IMG/VR virus record: IMGVR_UViG_2855110455_000001
Span: 3,344 to 67,343 of that record
Source: a virus
Lineage: Duplodnaviria; Caudoviricetes
DNA: 64,000 bases
Strand: one strand, 5' to 3'
The position numbers and the translations under genes were made by a program. The notes below the pieces were generated by a model. That model was not told the DNA's origin. It ran no database searches and was given only the letters and a program-made list of their open reading frames with translations. Shown one piece after another: positions 1,092 to 59,315 of the stretch (positions are counted from its first letter, which is position 1; each line of letters begins with the position of its first letter).

Positions 1092-1119
1092 GCCTAGTCT
1101 AATTACAAATTAATTAAAC

Positions 1120-1146
1120 AAAGCGATCTCTCACCAAGATCGCTTT
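1120..1146. terminator. Bidirectional hairpin between cargo and alpA; second copy at ~54,670-54,696
   Basis: aaagcgatct-ctcacca-agatcgcttt inverted repeat between convergent genes. Confidence 0.7.
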
Positions 1147-1150
1147 ATCT

Positions 1151-1492
1151 CTAAAACCGTTTTCCAAACCGACTTGTATTATCTTTCCATTCTTCAACAG
1201 CAGAACGTAACCAACGCAAGGGCATGAGTGTAATTGGCTCAGGGAAGCCGCGTGTTTGTCGCCACTTATAAATGGTTGCTCGACTTGTTATTTGAAACAT
1301 CTCTAAAACTTCAACGTGACTAATTAAAAGATGTGTTGATTGCTCATTAAGTTCAGCATAAGTTTTTGCTGGTGGCGGTGAATCAGGTAGTTGCTTTTGT
1401 TGTTTACTTTTATAGTGTGACGGTGTCACGTTTAAGCTGTTTTCTGTGGTATATGAGATGTTTACAGTAGGGTAGCTGTTGTAATCGAACAT
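1151..1492 (-). CDS. AlpA-family HTH regulator / probable excisionase
   Basis: EVLEMFQITSRATIYKW..GFPEPI..RWLRSAVEEW; start moved to ATG 1492 behind AAGGA. Confidence 0.85.
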   Translation of the reverse strand: MFDYNSYPTVNISYTTENSLNVTPSHYKSKQQKQLPDSPPPAKTYAELNEQSTHLLISHVEVLEMFQITSRATIYKWRQTRGFPEPITLMPLRWLRSAVEEWKDNTSRFGKRF

Positions 1493-1649
1493 GTTTGATT
1501 CCTTTTTGGTATGTTTAACTAACAAAATTAGCAAGACGAGCCCGATTCATGGTGCGCAGTAATGGGATATAGATAAAACTACCCCAATAGAGGCTTGGCG
1601 ATTGTGTGTGTTACGGGGGTTAGAAGGGAAAAGCTCTTTAGTAAAGAAT

Positions 1650-3281: not shown

Positions 3282-4126
3282 TAGATTTCCTCCGCTTCAC
3301 AATTGATGAGTGCTTGTTTTTGAGGTTCAGTTAATTGGCCTTTACTTTCAATCATGGCGATCAACTGTTCAGCCGTTTTCTTACCGGACTGAATGACGGA
3401 TGACCACTTGGTGTAATTGAGTTCAAACTGATCGACAGGATAGTGTTTTATGGCTGGGCGTTGTGGGGTGATATCTTTTTCTGATGGCACAAACTCTTTG
3501 CCTTCCATTTCTTCTGCGGTAGGAGCTTGCCCTATATCAGGCCATGCTTTACGTAGTGCTTGCGCCTCTGCACATTTGGCTAACTGAGCATAAGGGCGTT
3601 TTTTCCACATTGCATTAGGTGTTGTTGTATAACGACTTGCAGATGCGTAGTTTTCTAGCCAATATTCTTTGGCACTGAATGTCACTAAGCGATCGCCAAC
3701 GAGTTTATAAACCGTATATTTACACCATTCTGGGAATTGGTATTCACTTGTGCTTTTATCATCACCGAGTGTTGTTGTTATTAGTGGCCCAAACTCAGGT
3801 TCATCAGCACCAGCATAGGTTCCACTGCGGTCTGCTTGAATACGGTAAAGACCAATTCCAGGCATGACAACATCTCTAAATTCGTAGATATCTTTGCCAT
3901 TATGGTCTTTTTGGCTAGTTTTAACGCTCATTGGAACAAGATGGACTGGTTTCAGTAAAATATCTAAATGACGTGATAAGCAGTAATCCACTGCCATTAA
4001 TATTGATTCATCACGCGCTCCCGGGAATACGCTATTTTGTAAGGCTCCCCATGTTGATTGATCAATGCCGCGTTGTGCGACTGCGGGATATTGCTGCTCG
4101 AAAGGAACAGTCGATTGAGTGTTCAT
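3281..4126 (-). CDS. bet: Phage recombination protein Bet (RecT/Bet single-strand annealing protein)
   Basis: GIGLYRIQADRSG, MWKKRPYAQLAKCAEAQALRKAWP; coupled to exonuclease; start ATG 4126. Confidence 0.9.
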   Translation of the reverse strand: MNTQSTVPFEQQYPAVAQRGIDQSTWGALQNSVFPGARDESILMAVDYCLSRHLDILLKPVHLVPMSVKTSQKDHNGKDIYEFRDVVMPGIGLYRIQADRSGTYAGADEPEFGPLITTTLGDDKSTSEYQFPEWCKYTVYKLVGDRLVTFSAKEYWLENYASASRYTTTPNAMWKKRPYAQLAKCAEAQALRKAWPDIGQAPTAEEMEGKEFVPSEKDITPQRPAIKHYPVDQFELNYTKWSSVIQSGKKTAEQLIAMIESKGQLTEPQKQALINCEAEEI

Positions 4127-37502: not shown

Positions 37503-37590
37503 TCGTTGCTGGCCAAAACTTAGCGCATACTGACTACATTATGGAAAACTACACCTGAACCACTGCACCGAAAGGCGCGGTGGTTTTTTT
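37503..37590 (+). promoter_or_regulatory. Third promoter + terminator unit before the giant gene
   Basis: TTGCTG..gccaaaacttag..CATACT then aaccactgcacc-gaaa-ggcgcggtggttttttt. Confidence 0.5.
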
Positions 37591-37612
37591 ATGCCATTTT
37601 TATGAGGTTTAC

Positions 37613-43600: not shown

Positions 43601-43981
43601 CCTGGATTAGTTGATAAAGTGACGAACGATAACGTTGAAGATAGTCAGGTCGCTTTTTTAAGTCGTATATCCGGTCGAGTAATGCCATATGCAGATCAAA
43701 GTAAGTTTTATGAGCGCCGTGATGAATTACTGCAGATAAGAGATGAATCTAAGGTAACGTTTGGCACTAAGCGTAAGAACTTTTTAGGCACTTACGGTAA
43801 AAAACTGCGATTACTTCCTATGCTGAAGGTAACTGAAAATCAGCTTAAAGCGTTACGTAAACGTCGTAATGCTATTTATGCCCTCAACATCCCATCTAAA
43901 GATAAAGATTTACGTTTGAAGAACATTGAACGTCAGATGAAAACAGTAATAGATAGGTTTAATCGTCAATATAATGCTTAG
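37613..43981 (+). CDS. Giant ejection / large polyvalent protein (metallopeptidase-like motif, C-terminal LPD38-like domain)
   Basis: 2,122 aa; LRHEILVHHGL..EE zincin-like motif; TVNFNRRG, IPMPYGY, NENFFGGQIY C-terminal motifs. Confidence 0.75.
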   Translation: MSERLLGNDIDPKATVQAQTDMTNTGGDYELPEGFSLANFQPRDVKNHEVSLFDGAKSFVSGGLRSLEGASEAQGQVLNVLNDKVNANDGWISSVASAAQDIPVVRAAMATTPYIKNVLDSAANTVEDSLSDDAKAAASEPLAWREGDNWRVSTDPAVWGIQFSKSMGYMLPTIATAFSTGGVSASALLPNITNAMIRSGASATLASKAAPIALNMLMKAPAVGVGMSTDLGTQGVESSNGVIDAEHRQLMESQHYQDAFIDIDSDPKYVHLSDGEKFGLAKEFVSNQASRAAMTDVRNVAASAAATMVGDIPLANAMLKGFKHGGGVRGTAAGIAKGIAREAPMEAIQEGTQQRVSNEVSNEYQGSNIDPNQGVAEAAVSGGLMGTAMGGSMGSIGGFRSKSQVDPITEISVDDSPVSEAPIDSNAVDASISEDSVPEQHNKIYPNDFENTSSQIRQQEADTNETASELETENVVESTPDSDVNPDINPELATSIFNEVDTQNDLDIPAYLRQPVKLSEKAASIDESLPAATNTDLVVSDSRPDVIYGHDKRTTQDPTIYDKPVGEPQFEGGIPKNKLRQLKYLANRRNAKIPLALQPLKGSGRFTRPEYRSRLVSIADEAISLGNSKSVNVQVDSISDAITKLGGVSRTSAQADGIDSAAFKRNKLFSATKGRTFDELAEVLNEHGYRSRDGGKLDANAVLDLVDSEVNNNERHFSSQSDMLTETDHGSAFNELVREYGAERVKTAISKALQGNRLGDRQAEIVNEAMDVIETGRIEQAGGIEARHGERDSRREARALRQKKQLEKTHNELGLPKKVEPDNSVNIEREYNETVEAVLDNSIKQATIANPIETESLIYRYETGQITTADLISRLGELDYADKQKLNSMEDTQSTSKRKDPTSVEERARERETPSSKESESTRINSDRVGTDDVKKPKHEQRREPKSKITSTDDHRSMLYSQQALSSSNTTTKGIPLKQAELAVKSWLRQYNGGAGVSVNVVKTQAEAEQILGTSFNDYKVNAFYDEVTASVVVVADNIANTKDLRQKLRHEILVHHGLRAVVGDTEYGRILKTVYSGLGSKHLKSMVAELEQSYSRENLNNFVEEVLAHVAENERNKSQQWYDRVMAVIATALRKVGLMSASDITKAELHNIVQTLTDRIKSVNEWGPDSSPPGNDSNGHISRTKFSRTVFTNNQSSSAFLDAVEKARSHIKGPASDVAAGGFDIPTENIKSTIVRNLADKFQVLKELQRNIVKADGKITEDSDTYLAEELFHGKAENDLRIMKDAFVKPLANKMAQYDISQTKLDEYLIARHAQERNAYIASINAKFPDGGSGMSNADAQSKLDEIRNSGKQKHYDELAHIVDAMIARQRDVLRDSGLESDAVIDSWQSHYKHYVPLKGIAKDESSLPRTGKGFSIGGKEAKNAMGRKSIAESPSSHAISDLTEKLIRARKNEVGNALLKLVKDNPSDDYWQVFSSDKPDTSPQIIERKNSKTGQKEKVVEDRPVPMSMMPDYYFPTKKDGKVYYIKLHDKRLMKAMKNIGPDNSNGIIRAMATFNRFLASVNTSYNPEFVVGNFARDIQTAFLNLSAEQTRDDGKIKGKNIAKQVIVDIKHAMPAVYASLNDKSSKTPSGREWQNYFNEFMEDGGKTGWFDMKDVDGQAKDIERMVAVASGSTKGKAYKAFDAVAGFVENVNSAVENAVRLSAYVNARKAGISRKKSASLAKNMTVNFNRRGEVGTTLNAMYMFANASIQGTVNFVRTMADLNGDGKLKWKNMNKAQKLATGIVAGSFVLAFANRNAAGDDDDGENWYDKVPDYVKERNFVIMKSLVGGKQDGSYWSIPMPYGYNVFSVLGSSVESVMNSDSVTPVKAAGDLVMAALGAFSPIGMSESHTITGAVLKNALPTIGKPFAELGLNENFFGGQIYKENMPFGTPQPNSSISKRGTSDHYKDFAKWLNQVSGGSKYRSGGLDFSPDAMQYIVGYMGGAAFRFTSVKVPGLVDKVTNDNVEDSQVAFLSRISGRVMPYADQSKFYERRDELLQIRDESKVTFGTKRKNFLGTYGKKLRLLPMLKVTENQLKALRKRRNAIYALNIPSKDKDLRLKNIERQMKTVIDRFNRQYNA

Positions 43982-46358: not shown

Positions 46359-46817
46359 TTAATCAAAAAGAGCCTTTAGAGCTGCAGGTGAAGAAGGAAT
46401 TAGCCCAATTTTTAGACCAAAAGGTTTAAATACTTTACCTAAAATGTCAGCATTAAAATGGCCGCGATCGTTCTCTATATCTGAAATTGTTTTACGCGAA
46501 ACACCGACCATTTTGGCAAAGACATCTTGTTTTATACCTAAAACTCCAATCCGAAGATTTTTTAAGGCTTTTCCTTGAGATAGTTGACCAAATATTAATT
46601 GTTTGACTATCGCATTGATTTTCTTTTTTCGTTCTGATGGACTGGTAGTCGTAATATTTTTTGATACTCTTCCTGGAGATGACGATTCCTGCATCAAAGT
46701 TGGCTCTGTACCGTGAGATGGACGGTGATCTTCAGAAACACTTTGAATATTTCCTTTTTTCATTCGAGCGATAACATCTTCTACGCTTTCAGCTTGAATA
46801 TGATCAGTATTACTCAT
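46359..46817 (-). CDS. XRE-HTH antitoxin (HipB-like)
   Basis: LKNLR..LGIKQDVFAKMVGVSRKTISDIEND; ATGA overlap with hipA. Confidence 0.85.
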   Translation of the reverse strand: MSNTDHIQAESVEDVIARMKKGNIQSVSEDHRPSHGTEPTLMQESSSPGRVSKNITTTSPSERKKKINAIVKQLIFGQLSQGKALKNLRIGVLGIKQDVFAKMVGVSRKTISDIENDRGHFNADILGKVFKPFGLKIGLIPSSPAALKALFD

Positions 46818-48190
46818 AAAAGTCCCCATTTTTTTATCTTTTCAGGTATAAACTTCAAACCAATAGCTGGCATATTTGTTATTTGCTCTGGCGCACCTCT
46901 GCTCTCCAACCGCTCTTGAAGACCTAGACATTTTTTAGCCGTATTTCGAAGTTCCATAAGCAAAACGTCGCTCGGCACAAGATCTGATAGAGATTCTGCA
47001 ATACCAAAGAAGTCATACTCACCACCTACTTCTAATGGTGATTTCCATTTTGTAGATCGAGGAATACCTTCGGGATCTGCTTTCATAGGTGCGAAATCAT
47101 AAATAGGAGAGAGTTTAATAAAACCGTCACCTTTCAGAAAACATGTATTTCGGCCATGATTATCACTATTACCGAATAATATGTTCAGCAAATCTCTTTT
47201 TACCCATTCAATAACGAAAGCCTGAATATCAAAAATATAACCATGTGTTTTTACAGTATGACTTTGCGTTATTTTTTTAATCAAATCTCTAATTGTTGTT
47301 TCATGATCGAGAGTAACGCCAGGGCCTATACCTAAGATGGAATACACTGATTCCATGCCAAATCTTGATATAGAAGGAGCAGGGCTCTCACCATATATCA
47401 CATCAAATCTTGGTAACCATAAAGATGGATATGTTAAGCCTTCTTCAAGTCGCATATTTTCTACGGGAATAGTATCGAATCCCATAGCTGCTAGTTCATG
47501 GTAGTAATGATATTCAGCTCTAAGGATATTACAATCAACAAGGCTTCGAGTGCCGCGAGGGTACTTAACAAGATAGTGTAAATCTTGATTAGTGTTATCG
47601 TTCTGGTACGAGTCAATCCAGATATTTTTGGAATCAACAGATTTAGCCCGTTCCACAGAGTAACGAAGTAAAAGTTTAGGAGCTTCACCACCGGCACCTG
47701 TAGCACCACCTGCTGCTGCGCCTCTATGCTGAGCGTAATCGAGGAAGTCACCCGCTCTATTCTTTACATCATCGATAGTAAAGAAAAGTGTACCAGATAT
47801 ATGATCAGGCTTAGGTAATGAATCTTTAACTCTTAGGTTACCGACTGGAGCCATTGTTCCAAATTTGAGTAATATGAAATTTTGTTGCCCAGAACTCAAT
47901 TCACCTATATTGAGGCGATTAACCCAGTATCGTCTACTCGCGCCACTAGGCATGATATCGTCTAAAAACTTCAACCAGCCGGGTCTACCGTCATCATCAA
48001 AGAAGAAAGATACCGGATAATTTATAGAAACGGCATGAATATCATCTTTATCAAAATGCTCTAATGCGTATTCGCTAATATAATTTAATTCAGTTATTCG
48101 ATAGTTTTTCGAATCACTTTCTGGAAATGAAATGATTGCAATATCGAGCCACTTTTCGTTTAGAAAAGCTTGTATAGTCAGTTCTTCCAC
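46814..48190 (-). CDS. hipA: HipA-family kinase toxin
   Basis: GATGAGGEAPK, RFD, GNSDNHGRN, LSPIYDF. Confidence 0.9.
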   Translation of the reverse strand: MEELTIQAFLNEKWLDIAIISFPESDSKNYRITELNYISEYALEHFDKDDIHAVSINYPVSFFFDDDGRPGWLKFLDDIMPSGASRRYWVNRLNIGELSSGQQNFILLKFGTMAPVGNLRVKDSLPKPDHISGTLFFTIDDVKNRAGDFLDYAQHRGAAAGGATGAGGEAPKLLLRYSVERAKSVDSKNIWIDSYQNDNTNQDLHYLVKYPRGTRSLVDCNILRAEYHYYHELAAMGFDTIPVENMRLEEGLTYPSLWLPRFDVIYGESPAPSISRFGMESVYSILGIGPGVTLDHETTIRDLIKKITQSHTVKTHGYIFDIQAFVIEWVKRDLLNILFGNSDNHGRNTCFLKGDGFIKLSPIYDFAPMKADPEGIPRSTKWKSPLEVGGEYDFFGIAESLSDLVPSDVLLMELRNTAKKCLGLQERLESRGAPEQITNMPAIGLKFIPEKIKKWGLL

Positions 48191-48719: not shown

Positions 48720-49883
48720 ATGAGCCTGACAGACCGACAACTTAATCTTATATCAAAGCAAGACACTTATGACGGTAAAGCTGAAATTAGTGATGGTGAA
48801 GGGCTCGTTGTCCGCATAACACCTCAAGCTAAAATCTATTTTCATTACCGTTGCCGCTTTAATAAAAAAAGCCTAAGAATTCGTATAGGTAAGTATCCCG
48901 TAACTAGCCTTAAAGAGGCAAGGCGAAAGCATAAATTAATGATGGAATTAAGAGAATCTGGTCGAAATCCCAACATTGCTATAACGGGTGAGCTTGAATT
49001 TATCACTTTAGATGATTGTGTTGCGTACTGGCTTAAACATTATGTCCCTCAATTAAAAGTGGGTACTCAGGCACTTTATCGCTCGTTTGCCAAAAATTAC
49101 CTTATTGGTGCGTTCCCTGAACGTAATGTTGAAACGATACCAGCCAGAGAATGGATGCAGTGGTTAGATACCATTAGCCTTGATAAACCCAAAACCGCTA
49201 ATTCACTCTTCACCAAGCTAAGAGCCTGTTTAAACTTCTGTAAGAGTAAGTTCATTATTGAAAAAACAGACTTAGACCGAATTAAAAGACAGCATGTAGG
49301 TAGAGCACCAGAAGTCGGTACCCGAGTGCCAACGTTTTCAGAACTTAGCATGATTTGGTTGGCCATCGAACGCAGCCGCGCCAGCTCATCTAATAAGGCG
49401 CTGCATCAATTAACTATGTTGTGGGGCAGCCGTCTTTCAGAGTTGCGCCTAGCTCGTCGCAGTCACTTTGATATGGAAGCGGGTATATGGACGGTACCGA
49501 AAGAACTCAGTAAAACCAATACGCCAATAAGACGCCCAATTCCAACTAAAGCGCGGGTGATATTAGAGCGAGTAATGGCAACTTACGATGATGTGCTTTT
49601 TCCAGGTAGTGATCTTGATAAGCCGATAACTATTTCAGCGGCTAACCGTTATATCCGCCGTATAAGAGATGGTTTACCGATTGAAGATTGGCGTACCCAT
49701 GATTTTAGACGCTCATTATCCACCGGTGCATCAGAGCTTGGTGTAATGCCACATGTAGTTGAAAAGATGCTTGGCCATGAGCTGGGTGGCGTATTAGCGG
49801 TTTATAACAAACATGATTGGCTGAAAGACCAGTTAGAAGGGTATGAGCTATATGCTGAGAAGCTGGATAGTTATTTGAAGTAG
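48720..49883 (+). CDS. int: Tyrosine integrase with N-terminal arm-binding domain
   Basis: DGEGL.VR..GKYP..SL.EAR; R (SRLSE), K, HDFRR, LGH, Y (VYN). Confidence 0.95.
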   Translation: MSLTDRQLNLISKQDTYDGKAEISDGEGLVVRITPQAKIYFHYRCRFNKKSLRIRIGKYPVTSLKEARRKHKLMMELRESGRNPNIAITGELEFITLDDCVAYWLKHYVPQLKVGTQALYRSFAKNYLIGAFPERNVETIPAREWMQWLDTISLDKPKTANSLFTKLRACLNFCKSKFIIEKTDLDRIKRQHVGRAPEVGTRVPTFSELSMIWLAIERSRASSSNKALHQLTMLWGSRLSELRLARRSHFDMEAGIWTVPKELSKTNTPIRRPIPTKARVILERVMATYDDVLFPGSDLDKPITISAANRYIRRIRDGLPIEDWRTHDFRRSLSTGASELGVMPHVVEKMLGHELGGVLAVYNKHDWLKDQLEGYELYAEKLDSYLK

Positions 49884-49974: not shown

Positions 49975-50250
49975 TTCATACATATCGTGTTAACGGGATT
50001 TTTGATTAGTTTTTAATACTGCTTATTAATCTAGGCATAACTAAATATAATGATTTTTGCTGTTTGATTTTCAATTTTATATTGATTGTTATTAAGGCTG
50101 AATAACGAAATTTCTTATTTTCCACATTCCCCAAATTGCCACGCAAGAAAAAGAAAATTGTTAACGTGTTGATATTTATGTATTAAATGGGTTATAGTAT
50201 TCTTATTAATAAGTGTATTTTTGCATATAAAGTAAGAATACTTATTAATC
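49975..50250 (+). promoter_or_regulatory. Cargo leader copy A (promoter + hairpin); homologous to 52,500-52,780
   Basis: Shared blocks tttccacat, tgttaac..gatatttat, aagtaagaat.cttattaatc. Confidence 0.7.
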
Positions 50251-50311: not shown

Positions 50312-52387
50312 ATGGAAACAACTAGCTTTATTTCAACAAAAGTAGCTACAAAACTCTTAAAAGTTTTGATTAAAGTGTTAAAAAACAGTGTTGACAAGCG
50401 TAATAATGAGTTGGTTAGGATTAATGATATATTTGGTAATTGTGAGGAACTTGCTAAGTTTTACATACAACCTGATTGCCAGCAGGTAAATCCTGCTGAT
50501 GAGCTTGAAGATGAAACAATATCATCAATAAGAGCTGGAGTTTTTGAGACTATAAACAAATTTCTTAATCGAGATATTGTGACTAGAGATGGAGCAAGTC
50601 AGATGTTTATTCTTGCTGATGCAGGAATGGGAAAAACATCTTTGTTGATGATGGTTAAGCTAAGTCATTTGATGGCTTTCTGGCCGAAAAATTATCAATG
50701 CAAATTACTTAAATTAGGTGCTACCACCTTAAGTGATATCAATGATATAGAAAACAAAAGTCAAACTGTCTTATTGCTAGACTCATTGGATGAAGATACT
50801 CAGTGTAAGCAAGGTGGCACAATTAATCGATTAACTAAGATACTTGAAGCTACTAGCTGTTTTTACCGAGTTGTAATAACTTGTCGTACTCAATTCTTCC
50901 CTGAAACAGCAGGATCTGCTTTTAATACTATGGGTAAAATATCATTTAATAATTATGATTGCCCGTTAGTTTATCTTTCTTTGTTTACTGATGAGCAGGT
51001 GGATGAATATTTAGAAAAGCGTTACCCAAGAAGCTTAAAGTTCCTATTTAACCAATTTTATAACCCCAAATTGTATGATGCTAAACAATCTATAAGAAGC
51101 ATAGGCTCACTTCAGTTTCGACCGTTTTTGTTATCACACGTAGAGACTTTATTGGAAAGTCACCGACAGGGGGCTACTGAGTATGAATTATATAAAGGTT
51201 TAGTAGATACATGGTTAAATCGAGAGGTTATTAAGTTAAGGCAGCATCATGACAAAAATATTAATAAAGATGATTTGCTTAAAGCTTGTATTTGGCTAGC
51301 AGAAACGATGCAGCGACAAGGTAGACATACAGTAGCTTTGAAGCATATTCAGCAGTTATGTCACTGTGATTCTCATATTATTCTATTAGAAGATTCTGCT
51401 GATAGGGTTATTGAAGGAATAGATCATATTGATATTGGAACTAATTCATTACTAAATCGTAATTCATATGGTGAGTTTAGATTTTCTCATTTAAGTATTA
51501 GAGAGTTTCTAATTGTGTATGGAGTTGAGCTTGGTATTCTTGTGGATAAAGGAGACCCATTCCATAAAACTGACAATATGATTAAATTTATTAAAACAGT
51601 AAATAAAAATAAAGTTGGAATGTTTTCTAACGAAAAAAATGGGCTCTTGTTAACTGGGTTTAAGCTCTTGGATAGTCGTCAATTATCTAACTTTGATTTG
51701 AAGTATGCATCTTTGGAGGAAAGTGATTTAAGGAATGCATCACTTAGTTTCATAAATTTGGAAGGGGCAAATCTTCAAGGGGCAAATTTGGACAAAGCGA
51801 ATTTGGAAGAAACCAACTTGAAAGGAGCCAATTTACAGGGGGTAAGTTTACAGGGAGCAAACTTACAAGGAGCAAACTTACAAGGAGCAAATTTACAAGA
51901 TGCCTGTCTAAATGGTGCAATTCTTGACAACGCAAATTTGAATAGCGCCATGTTAACTGGAGCGCAATTAACCATTCTAAATCTACTCCAACAAAAGATG
52001 AGCGGTGCTAGTTTGAGGAATGCAAACCTCAGAATGGCGGACTTAAGTAAAGCAAACTTGGAAGATGCCAATTTAACAGAGGCGTGTTTAACAAGCGCTA
52101 AACTTCAAGCCTCATTATTTTCACGAGCAAACTTTAGTAATGCTCATCTTGATAGTGCTGACTTTAAAAGTTCAATTTTTATAGAAGCTAATTTTGAGAA
52201 TGCTGACCTTACTCAAGCTGACTTTGGCGGTTGTGATTTTACGAATGCAAATTTACAGGGAGCTGATTTGACTGGTAGTGATTTAACTCAAGCTCGTTTA
52301 ACTGGCTCCAATATAACTGACAGTCAACGAGGTGTGGCAATTTTTAGAAAGTATAAAAATGAAAAGCTAAATGAAATAGTATCATAA
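50312..52387 (+). CDS. NACHT/STAND-type NTPase with C-terminal pentapeptide repeats
   Basis: ADAGMGKT Walker A, LLLDSLDE Walker B, ITCR, RPFLL, FSHLSIREF; A(N/D)LxG repeats. Confidence 0.85.
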   Translation: METTSFISTKVATKLLKVLIKVLKNSVDKRNNELVRINDIFGNCEELAKFYIQPDCQQVNPADELEDETISSIRAGVFETINKFLNRDIVTRDGASQMFILADAGMGKTSLLMMVKLSHLMAFWPKNYQCKLLKLGATTLSDINDIENKSQTVLLLDSLDEDTQCKQGGTINRLTKILEATSCFYRVVITCRTQFFPETAGSAFNTMGKISFNNYDCPLVYLSLFTDEQVDEYLEKRYPRSLKFLFNQFYNPKLYDAKQSIRSIGSLQFRPFLLSHVETLLESHRQGATEYELYKGLVDTWLNREVIKLRQHHDKNINKDDLLKACIWLAETMQRQGRHTVALKHIQQLCHCDSHIILLEDSADRVIEGIDHIDIGTNSLLNRNSYGEFRFSHLSIREFLIVYGVELGILVDKGDPFHKTDNMIKFIKTVNKNKVGMFSNEKNGLLLTGFKLLDSRQLSNFDLKYASLEESDLRNASLSFINLEGANLQGANLDKANLEETNLKGANLQGVSLQGANLQGANLQGANLQDACLNGAILDNANLNSAMLTGAQLTILNLLQQKMSGASLRNANLRMADLSKANLEDANLTEACLTSAKLQASLFSRANFSNAHLDSADFKSSIFIEANFENADLTQADFGGCDFTNANLQGADLTGSDLTQARLTGSNITDSQRGVAIFRKYKNEKLNEIVS

Positions 52388-52499: not shown

Positions 52500-52780
52500 A
52501 TTCATATTGTATTAACGTGATTTTATCGCTTGAATTTCGTTTTAATAAGAAATTTTTGTTTAATGACAATAAAAGATGTTTCATAAATTATGAAAATAAA
52601 TATTTCACCATTTTATGTTTGTTGTAATTAAGATTAAATAACAATATTCCTTACTTTCCACATACCAAAAAATCACTTTGAAGGATGATGAGCATGTTAA
52701 CTTATGGATATTTATATGTTAAGTAGAATATAATTAATTATAAGCATCTTTTTGCGTAAAAGTAAGAATGCTTATTAATC
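52500..52780 (+). promoter_or_regulatory. Cargo leader copy B
   Basis: TGGATA-18-TATAAT + hairpin 52733-52779; homologous to copy A. Confidence 0.7.
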
Positions 52781-52835: not shown

Positions 52836-54497
52836 ATGTTCGAGCCTATGTTTGATACGCAAAATAAGTTGTTGGCTACTGTAATTGGGGTAGGCAGTGT
52901 TGGCTGTAAGATCGTACACGATATGCAATTCAACAATGATTCAGTGGCAAACGATTTGGTAAATAAACTATACGTACACACGACTGAAGAATTGCTTGTT
53001 AAATACACGAGTGAACCTTCTGAATCTTTATTGATCAGTGAGCACATACATTTTTTTGAGAAAGACATTAAAGATAGGGTCTCTGGTAGAGATATTGTTT
53101 TTCTTGTTGCTGGTCTTGGAGGTGAAACTGGTAGTCTAGTCCCTCAACATATAGCACGGATTTCAAAAAAATTAGGTATTTTATGTATAGGGTTATTTTC
53201 GTTTCCATTTGAATTTGAAGGAAGAAGTAAAAAGTTAAAGTCGCAGCAAGCATATTTAACTCTGAGCCAATACACGGATGCTTTGTTGTGTATAGAGAAT
53301 GATCGTTTTTTAGATTCTAATTTAAAAAACAAATCATTATATGGAATAAAAGATTTATTCCATGACTCAAACAGTCATTTTGATGCAGTGATTAAAGGTC
53401 TAGTTGATCTAATAACACGCCCAGGAATGATTAATGTGGATTTTTCTGATGTTAGGCAAATATTAACAAATATGGGTTTAAGTACAGTAGGTTTTTCTCG
53501 TCAACTTGGTGAAGAAAGAGCAGAAAATGCGGTGACTAAATTACTTCAGTCACCAGCATTACAACATTATGAATTGTCAAAAGCTAAAGGTTGTTTAATC
53601 AATATAACAGCAGGTTTAGACATGCGATTAGATGAGTTTGAAGTAATCGGTAATGTTGTAAAGGATTTTGTTGGAAATGACGTAACTGTTGTAATTGGAA
53701 CTTCTTTAGATCCTGAAATGATTAGTGCCATGGAAGTAACAGCAATAATAACTGGTTTACCTGAGTTACCAATAGATAAAAACATAAAAAGCAATGATTT
53801 TGACATTGTTAAATTGTCAAAATCAATTACGTTTGAATCTCATCAAGTAAGTGCAGGACTGTCAATATTATCGTATTTTAACGAGTTCCTTCATCAAAAG
53901 TACTCAGGAACAGAAGCAAAAGTTAGTATTGAACAAAATAGAAATATGGTGCGTCTGATAGTTGAAACACCATCTGGTGAAGTGGAAAAAATAGAAAAAT
54001 CATTACATGAATTTGGTCAAGTTATTGTTGGTAATAAACAGGCAAATGAAATTCTTGAATCAAAATTCGATGTAGAGCGCTTGCAGATGAAGTTAGAAAT
54101 GGCTGCAATGGAGTTAAAGCAAAATGAAAGAATGATGCTTTTGTATCAGGATGAAAACCAGTCTTATAAATCTAGGATTACTTCATTAGAAAATCAAATG
54201 ATTGAACTACAGCGAACAATCTGTAATGGCTTGACGTATTCGCAAAAACAATTGTCATTACAATTTTCTGCGTACAAAAATCTACCAACAAGCTTACTCT
54301 ACTTATTGGAAAATAATGCAGAGAAAGAACTCTCTGAACTAGCAAAAAAACAAATAGGAGAAGAAATTAGCAAGCACATTACAGATAATCACAAGGCTCT
54401 AACTTTAAAAGAGCTAGCTGATAATGCACTTTATGGGGTTGCTGGAAATTCCTTATATTCGCTCATTGTATCGTTGTTAGCCACGTTACCGAAGTGA
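52836..54497 (+). CDS. Divergent FtsZ-like GTPase domain fused to a ~230-aa unknown/coiled-coil domain
   Basis: VIGVG, AGLGGETGS, PFEFEG, IEND, PGMINVDFSDV, AKGCLINITAG, VVIGTSLDPEM..VTAIITGL; no FtsZ C-terminal peptide. Confidence 0.9.
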   Translation: MFEPMFDTQNKLLATVIGVGSVGCKIVHDMQFNNDSVANDLVNKLYVHTTEELLVKYTSEPSESLLISEHIHFFEKDIKDRVSGRDIVFLVAGLGGETGSLVPQHIARISKKLGILCIGLFSFPFEFEGRSKKLKSQQAYLTLSQYTDALLCIENDRFLDSNLKNKSLYGIKDLFHDSNSHFDAVIKGLVDLITRPGMINVDFSDVRQILTNMGLSTVGFSRQLGEERAENAVTKLLQSPALQHYELSKAKGCLINITAGLDMRLDEFEVIGNVVKDFVGNDVTVVIGTSLDPEMISAMEVTAIITGLPELPIDKNIKSNDFDIVKLSKSITFESHQVSAGLSILSYFNEFLHQKYSGTEAKVSIEQNRNMVRLIVETPSGEVEKIEKSLHEFGQVIVGNKQANEILESKFDVERLQMKLEMAAMELKQNERMMLLYQDENQSYKSRITSLENQMIELQRTICNGLTYSQKQLSLQFSAYKNLPTSLLYLLENNAEKELSELAKKQIGEEISKHITDNHKALTLKELADNALYGVAGNSLYSLIVSLLATLPK

Positions 54498-54701: not shown

Positions 54702-55043
54702 CTAAAAACGCTTTCCAAACCTGCTGGTATTATCTTTCCATTCTTCAACGGCAGAACGTAACCAACGTAAGGGCATCAGTGTAATTGGTTCAGGGAAGCC
54801 GCGTGTTTGTCGCCACTTATAAATTGTTGCTCGACTTGTGATTTGAAACATCTCTAAAACTTCAACGTGACTAATTAAAAGATGTGTTGATTGCTCATTA
54901 ATTTCAGCATAAGTTTTTGCTGGTGGCGGTGAATCAGGTAGTTGCTTTTGTTGTTTACTTTTATAGTGTGACGGTGTCACGTTTAAGCTATTTTCTGTGG
55001 TATATGAGATTTTTACAGTAGGGTAGCTGTTGTAATCGAACAT
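54702..55043 (-). CDS. AlpA-family regulator/excisionase (copy 2)
   Basis: Near-identical to 1151-1492. Confidence 0.85.
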   Translation of the reverse strand: MFDYNSYPTVKISYTTENSLNVTPSHYKSKQQKQLPDSPPPAKTYAEINEQSTHLLISHVEVLEMFQITSRATIYKWRQTRGFPEPITLMPLRWLRSAVEEWKDNTSRFGKRF

Positions 55044-55278
55044 GTTTGATTCCTTATTGGCGTGTTGTGCTAACAAACTTAGAAAGACGAACCCGATTTA
55101 TGGTGTGCAGTGATGGGGATATGGATAGAACTACCCCCAAAAAGCCTAGTAGTAATGTATGTTACGGATATGAGGAGGGAAGGGACTGTGTTAGTAATAT
55201 GCTATTTTGGGTATTATACCTAAAAAGCAAAGAGCCTTGTGTGTGATGAGCTCTTTACTTTTTTAATATATTCTTTTG

Positions 55279-55956
55279 TTACTTTAGAGAGCTAATGAAT
55301 GTCATTAGTTCATGCATTTTTGTTGCTGGCGATTCTGAATTATTTTTTTCACAATAGGTACATAGCCGCTGTGCATTAGTTATAGCGGAAGGAAGTAGTT
55401 GTATTGTATCTTTCAAGGCTGTTTTATTGCTCTTATCATAATTCTTAATAAAACCAGTTAGATCTTTTACCACTTGATTTGAGGCGGTTTTACGTTCCTG
55501 ATCTGTATACAATTTTGTTGTATATTCAAAATGTAGTATTAACCATATTTCAAAACAAGGAATACTTGTAATTGCTGTAAAAATAGGTGCATCATAACCT
55601 ATTGATTTGTTTATGCTATCAACCTTAGATATTGCATTGTAATACCGTGCATGATTATCTTTATCAAAAACACAAAAGACGCGTTCAAAGTCTGGTTTGT
55701 GAGATTTTTTTTCTTCGTTGAAACGACGCTCTGCATCTCTAACTATATCAAGTGGATCTTGCCCTAAGCCAACGATTGAAAAATTTGCTGTTGATAACCT
55801 AAAATGCCTGACAGCCTCAATAAGATAATGATAGCCTGAAACCGTATCCTCACAGACGATTAGAAATTTTGGATATGGTTCTTTTTTTTCATGTGCTCTT
55901 TTTTTTGAACGATTAGCTTTAGCCTTCAATTTATGAAAGATATTATCTTTACCCAT
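55279..55956 (-). CDS. RloB-family protein
   Basis: FLIVCED, FCVFDKD, SIPCFEIWLILHFE, AITNA..P.T motifs. Confidence 0.85.
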   Translation of the reverse strand: MGKDNIFHKLKAKANRSKKRAHEKKEPYPKFLIVCEDTVSGYHYLIEAVRHFRLSTANFSIVGLGQDPLDIVRDAERRFNEEKKSHKPDFERVFCVFDKDNHARYYNAISKVDSINKSIGYDAPIFTAITSIPCFEIWLILHFEYTTKLYTDQERKTASNQVVKDLTGFIKNYDKSNKTALKDTIQLLPSAITNAQRLCTYCEKNNSESPATKMHELMTFISSLK

Positions 55957-57222
55957 TTAACACTCTCTTTCAAAAATAAATGGTAAAGCACCATAAGATC
56001 CTGTGAGATATCTTTCTTCTAGATTTTCGAAGTCCTTTCTCACCTTAAATTCACTTAGGGCGTATAATTCACTCATATTATTTGTTTTTTGCATAAACCA
56101 AATTTGATCTCTTCTAAAGACCGATTGGTTTAAAATTGATGTTTCATGTGTAGTAAAAATTAATTGAGCATTATTTGGATTGGATTTTTTGCAATGAAAT
56201 AATTGAACCATGTGCTTCACTAAAAGCGGATGCAAATTTGAATTTAATTCATCGACAAAAAGAGTTCTACCACACTCTAAAGCATCTAGCCATGGGCCAG
56301 CAAAAGAAAAGAATCTATTCGTGCCATCAGATTCTTCTTCCATATCAAAAGGGACAGGCTGGCCATCCTCATCATTACGAATAAATTTTGTATCGTAAAT
56401 AATTTCACCTTCCAGCTTTTCAGCGATTTGTTCCTTTAAGGCTGAAGGCATTTCTTCTGGAAGGTTATTAATATGGAACTCTTCGCTTTCTACCTGAATA
56501 TCATCAACTAAGATATCTACATCTTTAAGTAATTGGATGATTTTTTCTTTGTTATCTGCATTGTTACATTGCTTGGATGTATAGCTTGAGCTCCAGCCGT
56601 CAATTCCAGAAATTGCAACTTGATCTACAAACCAATTAAAAATATCTTTTAGTTGAACACTATTTAGTTGAACTGCTGTTGATAAAAATAAAGAGTTTTC
56701 TTTTGTTAAGTTGGCCCATGTTTGCTTTTCTCCAGCTAAACTACGACCAAATTCCCACTTATATTCATTATCAGTATCGTCCCAGGCACGTAAAAACCAT
56801 TTTTGAGCTTTCTTTTTAGGGTATGCAAATAGGTATTCTGTCAAGATTCGAGATTGATCATAAGAAAATCCATATAAGTACTTAATATCATTTTCAATGA
56901 ATTCTACTTCAAATTCAGTTGGAGCATTTCTAGAGTGCTTAGAAAGCTTATATGGGTGATAAGGTAACTTTTTATCAATTTGCCATTGAGCTGATTTTAC
57001 AATCATGCGGCGCATTAATGAGAATGCTGAAATAAGATTACTTTTTCCACTTGCATTAGCACCATAAATTGCTGATGTTTTAAGCAATTTTTGGCTGTTA
57101 TTTTCACTTGCCCATTCAAAAGTATTAGTATCTGATTTTTCTGTGTAAGAACTTGGCTCCATGTCTAAGACTTGTTTTGAGCAGATAGACATATAGTTCT
57201 CTACTGCTAGCCGAATGATCAT
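55957..57222 (-). CDS. RloA-like AAA_21/ABC ATPase
   Basis: VENYMSI, IYGANASGKSN, ESDGT, VDEL..LHP, QLIFTTH, RRDQIWF, YL.G.YGA.P. Confidence 0.88.
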   Translation of the reverse strand: MIIRLAVENYMSICSKQVLDMEPSSYTEKSDTNTFEWASENNSQKLLKTSAIYGANASGKSNLISAFSLMRRMIVKSAQWQIDKKLPYHPYKLSKHSRNAPTEFEVEFIENDIKYLYGFSYDQSRILTEYLFAYPKKKAQKWFLRAWDDTDNEYKWEFGRSLAGEKQTWANLTKENSLFLSTAVQLNSVQLKDIFNWFVDQVAISGIDGWSSSYTSKQCNNADNKEKIIQLLKDVDILVDDIQVESEEFHINNLPEEMPSALKEQIAEKLEGEIIYDTKFIRNDEDGQPVPFDMEEESDGTNRFFSFAGPWLDALECGRTLFVDELNSNLHPLLVKHMVQLFHCKKSNPNNAQLIFTTHETSILNQSVFRRDQIWFMQKTNNMSELYALSEFKVRKDFENLEERYLTGSYGALPFIFEREC

Positions 57223-57692: not shown

Positions 57693-59315
57693 TTATAGCT
57701 GGATATTGGTATTAATGATGGCATCGTTATAACCAGACCAATTATCAACACCCGCATTTTCGAGTGCTGTTAAAATGGCATCACGTTTTCGAAGATAATT
57801 CGCTTCTTTAGCGGTTATTTGAACCATTGGTACTGCTTTGATTTCTGATGCTTGTATGCGTTGAGCAAGAATTACTGATTCTAGTGCTTCTTTGTCTTTA
57901 TTTAGCGCATTGCTAATAACATCACTTTGCTTACTTTCTTCGCTAGCGGGTAGTATTTCCTGTTGAGCCTCAACCTTTGCTTGTGCTTTAGCATCTGCTT
58001 CTATCTGCACTTGTTGGCGTTCTTGTTCTAATCGAATATCTTCTGCAGCTTTGTGGTCAGTAATTCGAGTTTTAACAAGAGTATTAAAATCATCGGTATC
58101 TTTGAAGCAAATTGCCGCCCAGTCATTAAATAAGAATTGGTACTCAGCATGTGTCGATAGGGTGGCGTAGTTTTCCTTTGCTTTGTTAGCTAAAAGGTCT
58201 GCTTCTACAAGAGATTGTGCTGCAGCAGTATCTGCAGCTTCCTCCAGTGATTGAACTGTCTTTTTACCTTTCATTGCATTAAGCACTGATACTGTAGGTA
58301 TTGGCATTGGGGCTTTGATTTCTAATGATAACGCATTGAGATGTTGTTGAATTTTAACGTTGGCATCGTTAAGAATACTTTTGCGAATTTCATCCTTGCG
58401 ACTCTTCACTTGTTTATCTGCAGCTAATCGCGCTTGGCGAATTTGTTCACTGACAAACTTCAATTCCTTAATGAACGCATCAATACTTTGGACTTCACCA
58501 AGCACTTGCTCTGATAGTGCTTTTAGTTTGTCTTCTGCACCTTTGAATACTTTGACAAGCTGCTCTGCATCAGCAAACTCTTGGTCAGTTTCAATGGGGA
58601 TTTTTGATTTTTCAATCAGTGCCATGGTAGCTTGTTTGAAAATATCAAAGTTGCTGTTAAGTGTTAGACCATCCATTTTGTAAGTTAAAGCGGGTAGGTC
58701 ACGGATAGGCTCTGCTTCAAGAATAATGATTTCTTCTTTTTGCTCATAATTAGCTAAGTCCTTTTGGAATTGCAGCCAACCGGCAATAAGCTGTTCGCGG
58801 CGCTCTGGCACAGAAACATACTCGCAAGACGCAAAGTTTTCACTTGTACCATCTGAACAAACAAAGATAGTTTTCTCGGCACCTGAAACTAAAAGTTGCT
58901 GCTCTAACTGTCAGTAGTAGTGCGGTTCTAAGTCATTAGCCAGCACTCGCTCATACAAATCTTGATTAAACAACTTATGTTCAAACACCACATCTTCCAT
59001 CATGGTAATGCCATCGAATGAAGATAGCATCCAGTCGTATTCATCACTGATTGCTGTTGCTGGGAATAACTCTTCATCAATGATATTTTCTACGAGTGGA
59101 CGAGCACTATCTTCTGCGGCATGGCCACGGGCAAAGATCTTCTCTTGAAAGCTATTCACTTCAGGTTGTTCACCTGTTGCTTTTTGTTTAAGTAGGGCAT
59201 CACGACTTTGATATTTTGATGCACCCATCATGGCGCTAGATTCTGAAGCTGTAAATTTAGTGGCTCGTAGCGCGTGCCATTGCTGAGTTCCTTGGGTGAC
59301 ATTGATAATTTTCAT
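57693..59315 (-). pseudogene. YqaJ exonuclease copy 2 with premature stop
   Basis: HYY-TGA at 58,913-58,911 where copy 1 has TGG (W); frame otherwise intact. Confidence 0.9.

What the first reader, a model, noticed from the sequence alone, without database searches (positions are those of the whole stretch)
52836..54497. Prophage FtsZ fusion built like a filament capper: candidate division-arrest defence system
Seen: the GTP-binding face is degenerate. T1 GGGG is GSVG, NTD is HTT, the GLGAGANPEVG T3 loop is absent and GGGTG is GGETG. The opposite face (INVDFSDV T7 loop and C-terminal subdomain) is well conserved. The FtsA/ZipA-binding tail is replaced by a ~230-aa domain (SITF..HQVSAGLSILSYF..KVSIEQ..VETPSG..IEK + coiled coil). 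The gene stays intact in a decaying prophage. Established: T7 inserts into the next subunit's GTP site to trigger hydrolysis. Inference: it binds host FtsZ ends but cannot be extended, poisoning the Z-ring when the C-terminal domain is triggered. It is unlike PhuZ/TubZ.
Basis: partly seen in the sequence, partly recalled or inferred. Interest (0 to 1): 0.85.

Follow-up and report, generated by a model that had tools for sequence, protein, structure and literature searches.

The report
One-faced FtsZ copy on mobile elements
A prophage cargo gene encodes a copy of the cell-division protein FtsZ that keeps only one of its two assembly faces and is fused to a widespread, undescribed tail module, so it probably engages the host's division protein in a bacterial conflict system.

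Summary
ORF 52836-54497 (+) encodes 553 aa with a true FtsZ fold. Its T1 loop, NTD motif, T3 loop and T4 signature are altered. The T7 loop and C-terminal subdomain are kept: 31-33% versus 49-53% identity to true FtsZ, and true FtsZ pairs show no such asymmetry. Three corrections apply.

1. The pocket is remodelled, not decayed. Its new residues are near-invariant across 43 relatives.
2. The ~230-aa tail is a promiscuous module with no Pfam, NCBIfam, PADLOC, PHROGs or PDB match. It ends 894 representative proteins whose N-terminal domains vary (receiver, pentapeptide, BglII-like, ClpX zinc finger, DnaA, TIR, PIN).
3. Published FtsZ polarity places a top-defective, bottom-intact subunit in the non-toxic mutant class. 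Growth-end capping is therefore unlikely.

The gene is autonomous and mobile. It is a single integron cassette in two loci, lies next to a type VI retron in another, and here sits in a variable int-alpA prophage slot near AbiL. The neighbouring STAND gene is not a conserved partner. In three host lineages the kept subdomain carries residues matching the resident FtsZ. This is suggestive only.

Best reading: a stand-alone conflict protein that docks on host FtsZ's nucleotide face. Whether it acts as weapon or sensor is unresolved.

The parts
52836..54497 (+). Whole gene: 553-aa FtsZ-derived head plus C-terminal module (stop codon included)
52836..53765 (+). FtsZ-fold head, residues 1-310 (GTPase-type subdomain 1-196, T7 loop and C-terminal subdomain 197-310)
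   Evidence: AF2 model. Foldseek to E. coli FtsZ: TM 0.87-0.90, 35% identity. Identity split 31-33% versus 49-53%.
52887..52910 (+). Remodelled T1 loop, GVGSVGCK (residues 18-25)
   Evidence: In 43 relatives G20 and G23 are 100% and C24 is 98% conserved.
53112..53135 (+). Altered tubulin signature, GLGGETGS (residues 93-100)
   Evidence: E97 is 81% conserved in 43 relatives.
53421..53456 (+). Retained T7 loop, PGMINVDFSDVR (residues 196-207)
   Evidence: N200 95%, D202 91%, D205 98% conserved in 43 relatives.
53766..53822 (+). Low-confidence linker, residues 311-329
   Evidence: pLDDT below 50 for residues 321-329
53823..54035 (+). Module head: helix plus three-stranded sheet, residues 330-400. 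This is the most conserved part of the protein.
54063..54272 (+). Single 70-residue helix, presumed coiled coil, residues 410-479
54288..54485 (+). Four-helix C-terminal bundle ending in the conserved G-x-S-G-N...LPK tail, residues 485-550. Not a transmembrane segment.
52705..52780 (+). Own promoter-like site (TGGATA-18-TATAAT) followed by an inverted-repeat block. It is paralogous to the leader of the upstream STAND gene (50169-50250).
50312..52387 (+). Neighbouring cargo gene: STAND-type NTPase plus pentapeptide repeats. It is not a conserved partner.
48720..49883 (+). Tyrosine integrase of prophage 2; left border of the cargo slot
54702..55076 (-). AlpA-like HTH gene; right border of the cargo slot. 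90.5% identical to 1117-1630 in prophage 1.
55279..57222 (-). AbiL defence pair (AbiLii, then AbiLi), inserted between alpA and exo relative to prophage 1

Best explanation
This is a stand-alone, horizontally mobile conflict (probably anti-phage) protein.

**Head.** Its N-terminal head derives from gammaproteobacterial FtsZ and has become one-faced.
- The T7 loop and C-terminal subdomain are kept FtsZ-like. This is the face that inserts into the next subunit's nucleotide site.
- The nucleotide face is rebuilt: new T1, no T3 loop, altered signature.
- The head can therefore dock on the GTP-bearing top face of host FtsZ, but no FtsZ can add on top of it.

**Consequence of filament polarity.** FtsZ filaments grow at the T7 end. 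The head should therefore act on free GTP-FtsZ monomers or on the shrinking end. Possible effects are sequestration, GAP-like hydrolysis through its conserved T7 aspartates, or blocked disassembly. It should not cap the growing end.

**Tail.** A flexible linker joins the head to a widely shared module: a small alpha/beta head, a 70-residue coiled coil and a four-helix bundle. The module probably dimerises the protein and supplies the regulatory or output function common to hundreds of unrelated fusions.

**Outcome.** When the protein is active, Z-ring dynamics are disturbed.

**Shown:** fold, motif pattern, asymmetry, module promiscuity, mobility, lack of a conserved partner gene, and co-resident canonical ftsZ.

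**Inferred:** binding to host FtsZ, dimerisation, effect on division, and a defence role.
For: **Fold and one-sided conservation**
- FtsZ fold.
- 31-33% versus 49-53% identity to true FtsZ, with no such asymmetry in three true-FtsZ pairs.
- T7 residues in 43 relatives: N200 95%, D202 91%, D205 98%.
- The top face changed in several ways: T1, T3 deletion, T4, and a 3-residue insertion before helix 7.

**Relation to the resident FtsZ**
- A canonical ftsZ above the family cut-off co-resides in 3 of 3 genomes that carry a fusion.
- At sites where Vibrio and Nitrincola FtsZ differ in residues 197-310, matches to Vibrio:Nitrincola are 15:4 and 17:3 for the two Vibrio fusions, and 4:11 for the Nitrincola fusion. 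Fisher p is 0.005 and 0.001.
- Recent gene conversion does not explain this. Only short 69-85% nucleotide matches were found.
- GC content does not explain it either. The Nitrincola fusion locus is 0.405 GC and its ftsZ loci are 0.52-0.53.
- The fusion heads of the ~550-aa gammaproteobacterial fusions (the clade containing P0001) form their own clade.

**Autonomy and mobility**
- The gene is a single integron cassette in L004 and is preceded by an attC in L006.
- No neighbour gene is conserved across loci.
- It has its own promoter-like site.

**Defence-type context**
- AbiLi (3e-96) and AbiLii (3e-23) lie beside it in the window.
- A complete type VI retron ends 590 bp upstream in L003.
- The int-alpA slot varies between two related prophages.
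- Module relatives occur in a P2-like Vibrio phage and on a mobilisable plasmid.

**Precedent.** Kaur et al. 2020 (PMC7159879; passages read) list inactive cell-division domains, and rarely FtsZ/tubulin, as effectors of conflict systems.
Against: - No direct test of FtsZ binding was possible.
- Top-interface FtsZ mutants are reported as non-toxic (PMC8936486 passages). A protein of this design may therefore be a weak inhibitor.
- The rebuilt pocket is strongly conserved. Simple loss of a face does not explain this, and it hints at a ligand or an intramolecular contact.
- Many module partners are input-type domains: receiver in 14 of 118, plus GAF, CBS, ATP-cone and HisKA. This favours reading N-terminal domains as sensors rather than weapons.
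- Host tracking rests on three host lineages only. It is also seen weakly in the GTPase subdomain (Nitrincola fusion 6:12, V. sinaloensis fusion 14:6). It is therefore not specific to the interface.
- P0127, a distant fusion relative, keeps GGGTGSG but has lost T7 residues. The one-faced design is therefore not universal.
- PADLOC and PHROGs have no model for the protein. The defence role rests on context alone.
Confidence: 0.4

Rival explanations
1. Guard or decoy sensor. The head is a non-polymerising mimic of the host FtsZ bottom face. It serves as bait for phage-encoded FtsZ inhibitors, or it reports the state of the FtsZ pool. Engagement of the head switches on the shared C-terminal module, which is the real output.
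For: - Module partners are largely input or binding domains. Of 118 scanned: receiver 14, pentapeptide 8, ClpX zinc finger 6, and HisKA, GAF, CBS, ATP-cone and HTH.
- Other partners are copies of host proteins: an intact DnaA AAA+ domain lacking domains I/II and IV, and the ClpX zinc finger.
- The largest partner class has a BglII/BamHI-like fold with no invariant acidic residue in 12 aligned members, so it probably binds rather than cuts.
- The module head is the most conserved part of the protein (0.82).
- Mimicry predicts the observed matching to resident FtsZ.
- Loss of canonical GTP motifs would keep a bait out of the Z ring.
Against: - The module has no recognisable killing or enzymatic fold. 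It has no transmembrane segment (median hydropathy 1.06; 3 of 119 at 1.6 or above). It has no structural relative.
- TIR and PIN, which are classical effectors, also occupy the N-terminal position (1 each of 118).
- No phage trigger is known.
Confidence: 0.25
2. Ligand-switch head. The FtsZ fold has been re-used as a small-molecule (nucleotide-type) binding domain, like the GAF, CBS and ATP-cone partners of the same module. It makes no contact with host FtsZ.
For: - The rebuilt pocket is near-invariant in 43 relatives: GxGxxGC, H48, GG.TGS, PFxFEG, N155, D156, F158.
- All fusion subfamilies share the GxGxxGC form of T1.
- Sensor-type partners of the module are common.
Against: - It does not explain why the T7 face stays FtsZ-like. 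That region is 62% identical to Vibrio FtsZ over residues 197-212 and its aspartates are conserved.
- It does not explain why the C-terminal subdomain matches the resident FtsZ.
Confidence: 0.15
3. Self-assembling cytoskeletal element of the mobile element, TubZ/PhuZ-like in role. It would polymerise through a co-evolved pair of faces.
For: - Both halves of the head are under similar constraint within the family: 0.40-0.57 versus 0.39-0.66 identity.
- FtsZl1 proteins combine an FtsZ-like domain with a coiled coil and a helical domain (PMC2875224, section 4).
Against: - Only one face diverged from FtsZ; co-evolution should change both.
- The T3 loop is deleted and the signature altered.
- The gene is a single cassette with no centromere-binding or adaptor partner.
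- The same module is attached to many non-cytoskeletal domains.
Confidence: 0.08
4. Two-gene system. The upstream STAND-pentapeptide NTPase senses phage and activates the FtsZ fusion as its effector.
For: - The two genes are adjacent on the same strand and share paralogous leaders of about 280 nt, including a 22-nt block found only at these two places in the window.
- Pentapeptide repeats are also frequent partners of the module.
Against: - 0 of 4 other fusion loci (L002, L003, L004, L006) have a STAND gene upstream.
- A terminator-like hairpin and a separate promoter-like site lie between the two genes.
- The STAND N-terminus and the fusion share no adaptor domain (best BLASTP E 0.64).
Confidence: 0.07

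Closest known systems
Canonical gammaproteobacterial FtsZ (TIGR00065)
   Same: - Same two-subdomain fold (TM 0.87-0.90 to E. coli FtsZ).
- PFxFEG, the T7 loop and the C-terminal subdomain are retained (49-53% identity).
- Nearest sequence relatives are Vibrio/Photobacterium-type FtsZ.
   Different: - Scores below the family cut-off (195.9 against 295.2 bits).
- T1, NTD and T4 are changed, and T3 is deleted.
- There is no disordered linker and no C-terminal peptide for FtsA/ZipA.
- It carries a 224-aa module instead (residues 330-553).
- It is an accessory, patchy, mobile gene that co-exists with a real ftsZ.
Polymerisation-interface mutants of FtsZ (top-face versus bottom-face), as summarised in PMC8936486
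   Same: It is a natural analogue of a subunit with one working longitudinal face.
   Different: - The toxic, capping class has a defective bottom face.
- This protein has a defective top face and an intact bottom face, which is the class reported as non-toxic (the primary papers Du 2018 and Redick 2005 were not read).
- It also carries a dimerising module.
Protein inhibitors of FtsZ assembly (SulA, MciZ, MipZ)
   Same: The proposed mode of action is monomer sequestration or end binding (passages of PMC8936486 and PMC9897490).
   Different: - Per the passages read, MciZ binds the bottom (C-terminal) interface, and MipZ is said to cap the plus-end (C-terminal polymerisation interface). SulA is named there only as a sequestering protein; that it binds the T7 face is recalled.
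- This protein would occupy the opposite, nucleotide face.
- It is itself an FtsZ homologue.
FtsZl1 family (Makarova and Koonin 2010, PMC2875224)
   Same: The architecture is alike: FtsZ-like domain, then coiled coil, then a helical C-terminal domain.
   Different: - The conservation pattern is the opposite. FtsZl1 keeps the GGGTG(S/T)G signature but lacks recognisable T6-H7 elements and the C-terminal subdomain.
- FtsZl1 proteins are about 1000 aa.
- Per the paper's abstract, one of the two new families is linked to vWA, GTPase and OmpA genes. No such genes were seen here.
Inactive cell-division domains as effectors in NTP-dependent conflict systems (Kaur et al. 2020, PMC7159879)
   Same: The theme is the same: inactivated MinD/ParA, FtsK and, rarely, FtsZ/tubulin domains, pentapeptide repeats, TIR and nucleases in a variable position next to a constant module.
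   Different: - Those are multi-gene systems built on vWA-MoxR, GTPases or STAND proteins with shared adaptor domains.
- Here a single gene carries an undescribed constant module and no shared adaptor.
- The paper's supplementary architectures could not be seen.

Membership tests
Canonical FtsZ (TIGR00065 equivalog) | FtsZ/tubulin two-subdomain fold | tested here: met
   Foldseek E about 1e-31, TM 0.87-0.90 by target, to E. coli FtsZ. Model pLDDT 80.3.
Canonical FtsZ (TIGR00065 equivalog) | Score above the curated family cut-off | tested here: not met
   195.9 bits against a cut-off of 295.2. Only profile positions 91-334 of 353 match.
Canonical FtsZ (TIGR00065 equivalog) | GTP-binding loops: T1 GGGGxN, T3 GAGxNPxxG, T4 GGGTG(S/T)G | tested here: not met
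   T1 is GSVGCK, T3 is deleted, and T4 is GGETGS.
Canonical FtsZ (TIGR00065 equivalog) | T7 loop with N-x-D-x-x-D | tested here: met
   The sequence is INVDFSDV. In 43 relatives N200 is 95%, D202 91% and D205 98% conserved.
Canonical FtsZ (TIGR00065 equivalog) | C-terminal conserved peptide (D-Y-L-D-I-P-x-F-L-R) after a disordered linker | tested here: not met
   Absent. One alignment placed it against Y-K-N-L-P-T-S-L-L, but a second alignment did not.
FtsZl1 (Makarova and Koonin 2010) | Retained GGGTG(S/T)G with loss of T6-H7 and the C-terminal subdomain | tested here: not met
   The pattern here is the opposite. Family features were taken from section 4 of PMC2875224.
TubZ/PhuZ-type element-borne tubulins | Intact GTP-binding signature and self-polymerisation | tested here: not met
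   The signature is altered. All 50 listed structural matches are FtsZ. Polymerisation itself cannot be tested here.
Adaptor-coupled effector of a STAND/NTPase conflict system (Kaur et al. 2020) | Shared adaptor domain with, and conserved adjacency to, the NTPase | tested here: not met
   Best BLASTP E is 0.64 between the STAND N-terminus and the fusion. 0 of 4 other fusion loci have a STAND neighbour.
Integron gene cassette | Single ORF flanked by attC repeats within an array | tested here: met
   - Met for the relatives. In L004 the ORF at 2025-3677 lies between repeats at 1872-1998 and 3670-3791. In L006 an attC at 770-845 lies upstream.
- Not met for the window copy, whose flanks show no attC.
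Known anti-phage defence families (PADLOC-DB 2.0) | Match to a defence-protein model | tested here: not met
   0 families at E up to 0.1. PHROGs also gave 0 families. This shows absence from those libraries, not absence of a defence function.

The most novel reading that the evidence does not exclude
The C-terminal module defines a large, undescribed class of single-gene immune proteins. In a subset of them, the N-terminal position holds look-alikes of host proteins or of DNA: an FtsZ bottom face, a DnaA AAA+ domain, the ClpX zinc finger, DNA-mimicking pentapeptide repeats, and an inactive restriction-enzyme fold.

These copies would act as decoys that catch phage proteins aimed at the real host targets. 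The FtsZ fusion would then be a decoy for phage division inhibitors, kept matched to each host's own FtsZ.
Probability: 0.2. Interest if true: 0.9.

Novelty: new variant of a known kind. Interest (0 to 1): 0.72.

Why it matters
**A natural one-faced subunit.** FtsZ filament polarity and capping have been studied with engineered interface mutants. This family is a natural one-faced FtsZ, selected on mobile elements, and its kept face appears tuned to the resident FtsZ. It would be a ready-made probe of which filament end or pool matters in vivo. It would also be a possible first case of an FtsZ homologue used as a weapon or bait in phage-bacterium conflict.

**A new module.** The tail module is found in 894 representative proteins and has no model in Pfam, NCBIfam, PADLOC, PHROGs or the PDB. 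It sits behind receiver, nuclease-like, TIR, PIN, DnaA and FtsZ domains. It is therefore a sizeable uncharacterised building block of bacterial signalling or immunity. Working out its function would annotate hundreds of protein families at once.

Tried and rejected
1. **Relic FtsZ C-terminal peptide inside the tail.** MAFFT aligned it once but not in a second alignment. Rejected.
2. **C-terminal transmembrane anchor.** Best 19-residue hydropathy is 1.47 in P0001. The median is 1.06 over 119 module proteins, and 3 of 119 reach 1.6. AF2 packs the helix into a bundle. Rejected.
3. **Shared adaptor domain with the STAND gene.** None found.
4. **Conserved neighbour genes of module proteins.** I scanned 80 metagenome loci plus 5 others. 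The largest cross-locus neighbour family spans 5 loci. Near-identical contigs were not removed before this count.
5. **Structural relatives of the module.**
   - Foldseek against the PDB: 0 matches at E 0.001 or below.
   - VIA wide: best Z 7.7 on the helical bundle only, in the range the tool calls common.
   - Profile against PDB sequences: nothing below E 0.1.
   - Pfam weak hits only: BrxL_N at E 0.026.
   - ESM Atlas: only unnamed clusters.
6. **Degenerate nucleotide site in the DnaA fusions as a parallel.** Not found. Walker A/B, sensor motifs and the arginine finger look intact by eye.
7. **Recent gene conversion from host ftsZ.** No long high-identity nucleotide match.
8. **Expression.** No RNA holder was listed.
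9. **Literature.** Full-text searches found no paper describing this fusion or its module. The supplements of PMC7159879 may list related architectures.
10. **More host lineages for the host-matching test.** None were obtainable. The species-representative genomes hold only four loci.
Full report
**What is there.**
The ORF at 52836-54497 (+) encodes 553 aa and is preceded by a GAGG ribosome-binding site.
- Pfam finds a full FtsZ_C domain (residues 214-308, E 1.7e-22). It finds only the distal half of the Tubulin GTPase domain (residues 73-160).
- NCBIfam's ftsZ model scores 195.9 bits, under its 295.2 cut-off, and only from profile position 91 onward.
- PADLOC and PHROGs have no match.
- An AF2 model built on 43 relatives has pLDDT 80.3. 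It gives an FtsZ fold for residues about 14-306, a disordered linker, a helix plus three strands, a 70-residue helix and a helical bundle.
- Foldseek puts E. coli and Klebsiella FtsZ first (E about 1e-31, TM 0.87-0.90 by target, 35% identity). All 50 listed rows are FtsZ.

I aligned 10 family members with 5 true FtsZ.
- T1 is GVG(S/T)VGC(K/R), where FtsZ has GVGGGGGN.
- NTD is H(T/S)(T/S).
- The T3 loop is deleted.
- T4 is GG(E/D/A)TGS.
- There is a 3-residue insertion before helix 7.
- PFxFEG, GMINVDFSDVR (T7) and the C-terminal subdomain are retained.

Identity to five true FtsZ is 31-33% over residues 1-196 and 49-53% over residues 197-310. Three true-FtsZ pairs give equal values for the two halves, 0.68-0.78 and 0.69-0.82.

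Within the family the two halves are equally constrained, and the altered pocket residues are near-invariant in 43 sequences. The pocket was therefore rebuilt and then conserved. It has not decayed.

More distant fusion subfamilies (35-39% identity) all share the GxGxxGC form of T1 but differ elsewhere.
- P0127 keeps GGGTGSG and has lost T7 residues.
- P0125 keeps part of T3.
- The T3 deletion marks the Vibrio/Shewanella/Aeromonas/Nitrincola/Psychrosphaera clade.

**Distribution.**
The first 52 rows of the word-indexed search are fusion relatives. Of these, 46 cover at least 97% of the query at 41-92% identity. Source names are Vibrio, Shewanella, Aeromonas, Photobacterium, Nitrincola and Psychrosphaera. 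After them come ordinary FtsZ proteins, 356-416 aa long, at 39-45% identity over 41-52% of the query.

A scan of 185,579 species genomes with a tail-only profile confirmed only 4 loci out of 174 pattern matches. A scan of IMG/VR confirmed 1 of 243. The gene is rare and patchy.

**Context.**
The window comes from a 67-kb provirus record. The gene lies between a tyrosine integrase (48720-49883) and an AlpA-like gene (54702-55076). A STAND-pentapeptide gene lies upstream and AbiLi/AbiLii lie just beyond alpA.

Comparison with the related prophage at the start of the window shows three things.
- alpA and the exo region are about 90.5-90.8% identical.
- The int-alpA slot carries different cargo.
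- AbiL is an insertion.

Elsewhere:
- **L004 (V. sinaloensis).** The gene is a single cassette between about 127-nt attC repeats in an integron array.
- **L006.** An attC precedes it.
- **L003 (Psychrosphaera).** A complete type VI retron ends 590 bp upstream (RT_VI 1e-75, HTH_VI 4e-30, SP_VI 9e-22).
- **L002 (Nitrincola).** I saw no defence gene among the 5 neighbours scanned.

None of these four loci has a STAND neighbour.

The STAND gene and the fusion have paralogous leaders of about 280 nt. Each has a promoter-like site, and they share a 22-nt block found only at these two places in the window (0 expected). They look like two cassettes under similar control, not an operon.

**The tail is a shared module.**
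A profile of the tail alone, searched against 1.84 billion representatives, gave 894 proteins at E 0.001 or below. Of these, 782 are at 1e-10 or below and 124 at 1e-30 or below. The module sits at or near the C-terminus of nearly all of the 150 listed proteins, which are 141-605 aa long.

Pfam on 118 of the 150 listed proteins gave these N-terminal partners:

| Partner | Proteins of 118 |
|---|---|
| Response_reg | 14 |
| Pentapeptide | 8 |
| ClpX zinc finger | 6 |
| FtsZ_C | 4 |
| HisKA | 3 |
| HTH_26 | 3 |
| ATP-cone | 2 |
| CBS | 2 |
| GAF | 2 |
| DnaA ATPase | 1 |
| Cas_NE0113 | 1 |
| PIN | 1 |
| TIR | 1 |

Most of the remaining proteins carried no Pfam family; in all, 43 families matched at least one protein and the 25 commonest were shown.

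BLAST clustering of 217 N-terminal regions (representatives plus metagenome loci, so biased by how the loci were found) gave 63 clusters. The largest have 43, 33, 23, 16 and 12 members, the last being the FtsZ class.

The 43-member class has a BglII/BamHI-like fold by the ESM Atlas model (TM 0.70, 164 residues aligned). It has no invariant acidic residue in 12 aligned members. The DnaA fusions keep an apparently intact AAA+ domain but lack domains I/II and IV.

Module proteins also occur in a P2-like Vibrio phage and on a mobilisable Polaromonas plasmid. No neighbour gene is conserved across 85 loci.

A separate AF2 model of the module (pLDDT 85) has no convincing solved relative. Its last helix is not a membrane anchor.

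**Relation to the host's own FtsZ.**
Each of three genomes with a fusion also has a canonical ftsZ above the family cut-off.

In residues 197-310 each fusion is most similar to the FtsZ of its own host lineage.
- Vibrio fusions: 0.53 and 0.57 to Vibrio FtsZ, against 0.41-0.48 to the others.
- Nitrincola fusion: 0.50 and 0.47 to its own two FtsZ, against 0.43-0.44.
- Psychrosphaera fusion: 0.41 against 0.38-0.39.

At sites where Vibrio and Nitrincola FtsZ differ, the matches are as follows:

| Fusion | Matches Vibrio : Nitrincola |
|---|---|
| Window (Vibrio) | 15:4 |
| V. sinaloensis | 17:3 |
| Nitrincola | 4:11 |
| Psychrosphaera | 7:6 |

Fisher p is 0.005 (window against Nitrincola) and 0.001 (V. 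sinaloensis against Nitrincola).

Three further checks bear on this.
- Nucleotide comparison shows no recent conversion.
- The Nitrincola fusion locus is AT-rich (0.405) against 0.52-0.53 for its ftsZ loci, so base composition does not explain the matches.
- In FastTree trees the true FtsZ form one clade and the ~550-aa gammaproteobacterial fusions form another; P0125 joins the FtsZ clade and P0124, P0051, P0052 and P0127 branch apart (support values were not examined).

The caveats are that there are only three host lineages, that the two Vibrio fusions are not independent, and that a weaker trend appears in the GTPase subdomain as well.

**Mechanism.**
Passages of PMC8936486 state the following.
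- Incoming monomers add through their GTP-bound top surface.
- Bottom-interface mutants are toxic and top-interface mutants are not. The passage cites Du 2018 and Redick 2005, which I did not read.
- MciZ caps the bottom.

A head with an intact bottom and a rebuilt top would therefore dock on monomers' GTP face or on the shrinking end. This is sequestration, GAP-like hydrolysis or blocked disassembly. It is not growth-end capping.

The one-sided retention of FtsZ-like sequence, the conserved T7 aspartates and the host matching make engagement with host FtsZ the best-supported step.

Whether the head is the weapon or the sensor is open.
- Receiver, GAF, CBS, ATP-cone and HisKA partners, and the conserved module head, favour N-terminal input with a module output.
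- TIR and PIN partners, and the precedent of inactive division domains as effectors (PMC7159879 passages), favour the reverse.

**Verdict.**
This is a real and unusual FtsZ paralogue family. Its mechanism needs a corrected polarity, and its 'trigger domain' is a widespread new module. I found no description of either in four full-text searches. That library is open-access only, and supplements were closed.

Noticed in passing
window 50169-50250 and 52705-52780: The STAND gene and the FtsZ fusion have paralogous leaders of about 280 nt. Each has a promoter-like site followed by inverted repeats built on CTTATTAAT. A 22-nt block occurs only at these two places in the window (0 expected by shuffling).
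   Followed up: partly
window 39128-39151, inside ORF 37580-43981 (+): The 2133-aa protein of the first prophage contains L-D-I-P-A-Y-L-R in frame. This is close to the FtsZ C-terminal peptide consensus D-Y-L-D-I-P-A-F-L-R. There is one match in the window's six frames against one match in 150 shuffled windows (the pattern was chosen after the fact). A possible FtsZ-tail mimic thus lies next to a prophage that carries an FtsZ-head copy.
   Followed up: partly
window 55279-57222 (-): An AbiLi/AbiLii pair (E 3e-96 and 3e-23 in PADLOC) is inserted exactly between alpA and the exo region, relative to the related prophage at window 1117-3334.
   Followed up: yes
window 57693-58811 (-) and 58911-59315 (-): These two ORFs (372 and 134 aa) correspond to one 543-aa ORF (1650-3281) in the first prophage, so the gene is broken here. 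The 372-aa piece ends in a T7 gp5.9-like RecBCD-inhibitor domain, and the 134-aa piece is YqaJ-like.
   Followed up: partly
window 46359-48190 (-): A HipA-like kinase gene is followed by an HTH gene between the two prophages.
   Followed up: no
L003 6806-8412 (-): A complete type VI retron (RT, HTH and small protein) lies directly upstream of the Psychrosphaera FtsZ fusion.
   Followed up: yes
L005 9377-10756 (+), and L004, L006: Integron cassette arrays in Saccharospirillum and Vibrio carry module proteins as single cassettes. The Saccharospirillum protein has a BglII/BamHI-like N-terminal fold. L006 is filed as a provirus in IMG/VR but holds attC repeats at 273, 770, 9522 and 10814.
   Followed up: partly
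proteins P0136 and P0266: A DnaA AAA+ domain with apparently intact ATP motifs is fused to the same module. Domain IV is replaced; in P0266 an XRE-type HTH lies in between.
   Followed up: partly
G001 contigs C15 and C32 (L091, L092): The Nitrincola assembly holds two canonical ftsZ genes above the family cut-off (383 and 403 aa by my first-ATG ORF call; open frames 384 and 410 aa; 75% identical in the C-terminal subdomain). This may be a duplication or a mixed assembly.
   Followed up: no
proteins P0004 and P0040: Vibrio cholerae records hold 459-aa and 322-aa versions, 90% identical to the window's protein. They may be truncated copies.
   Followed up: no
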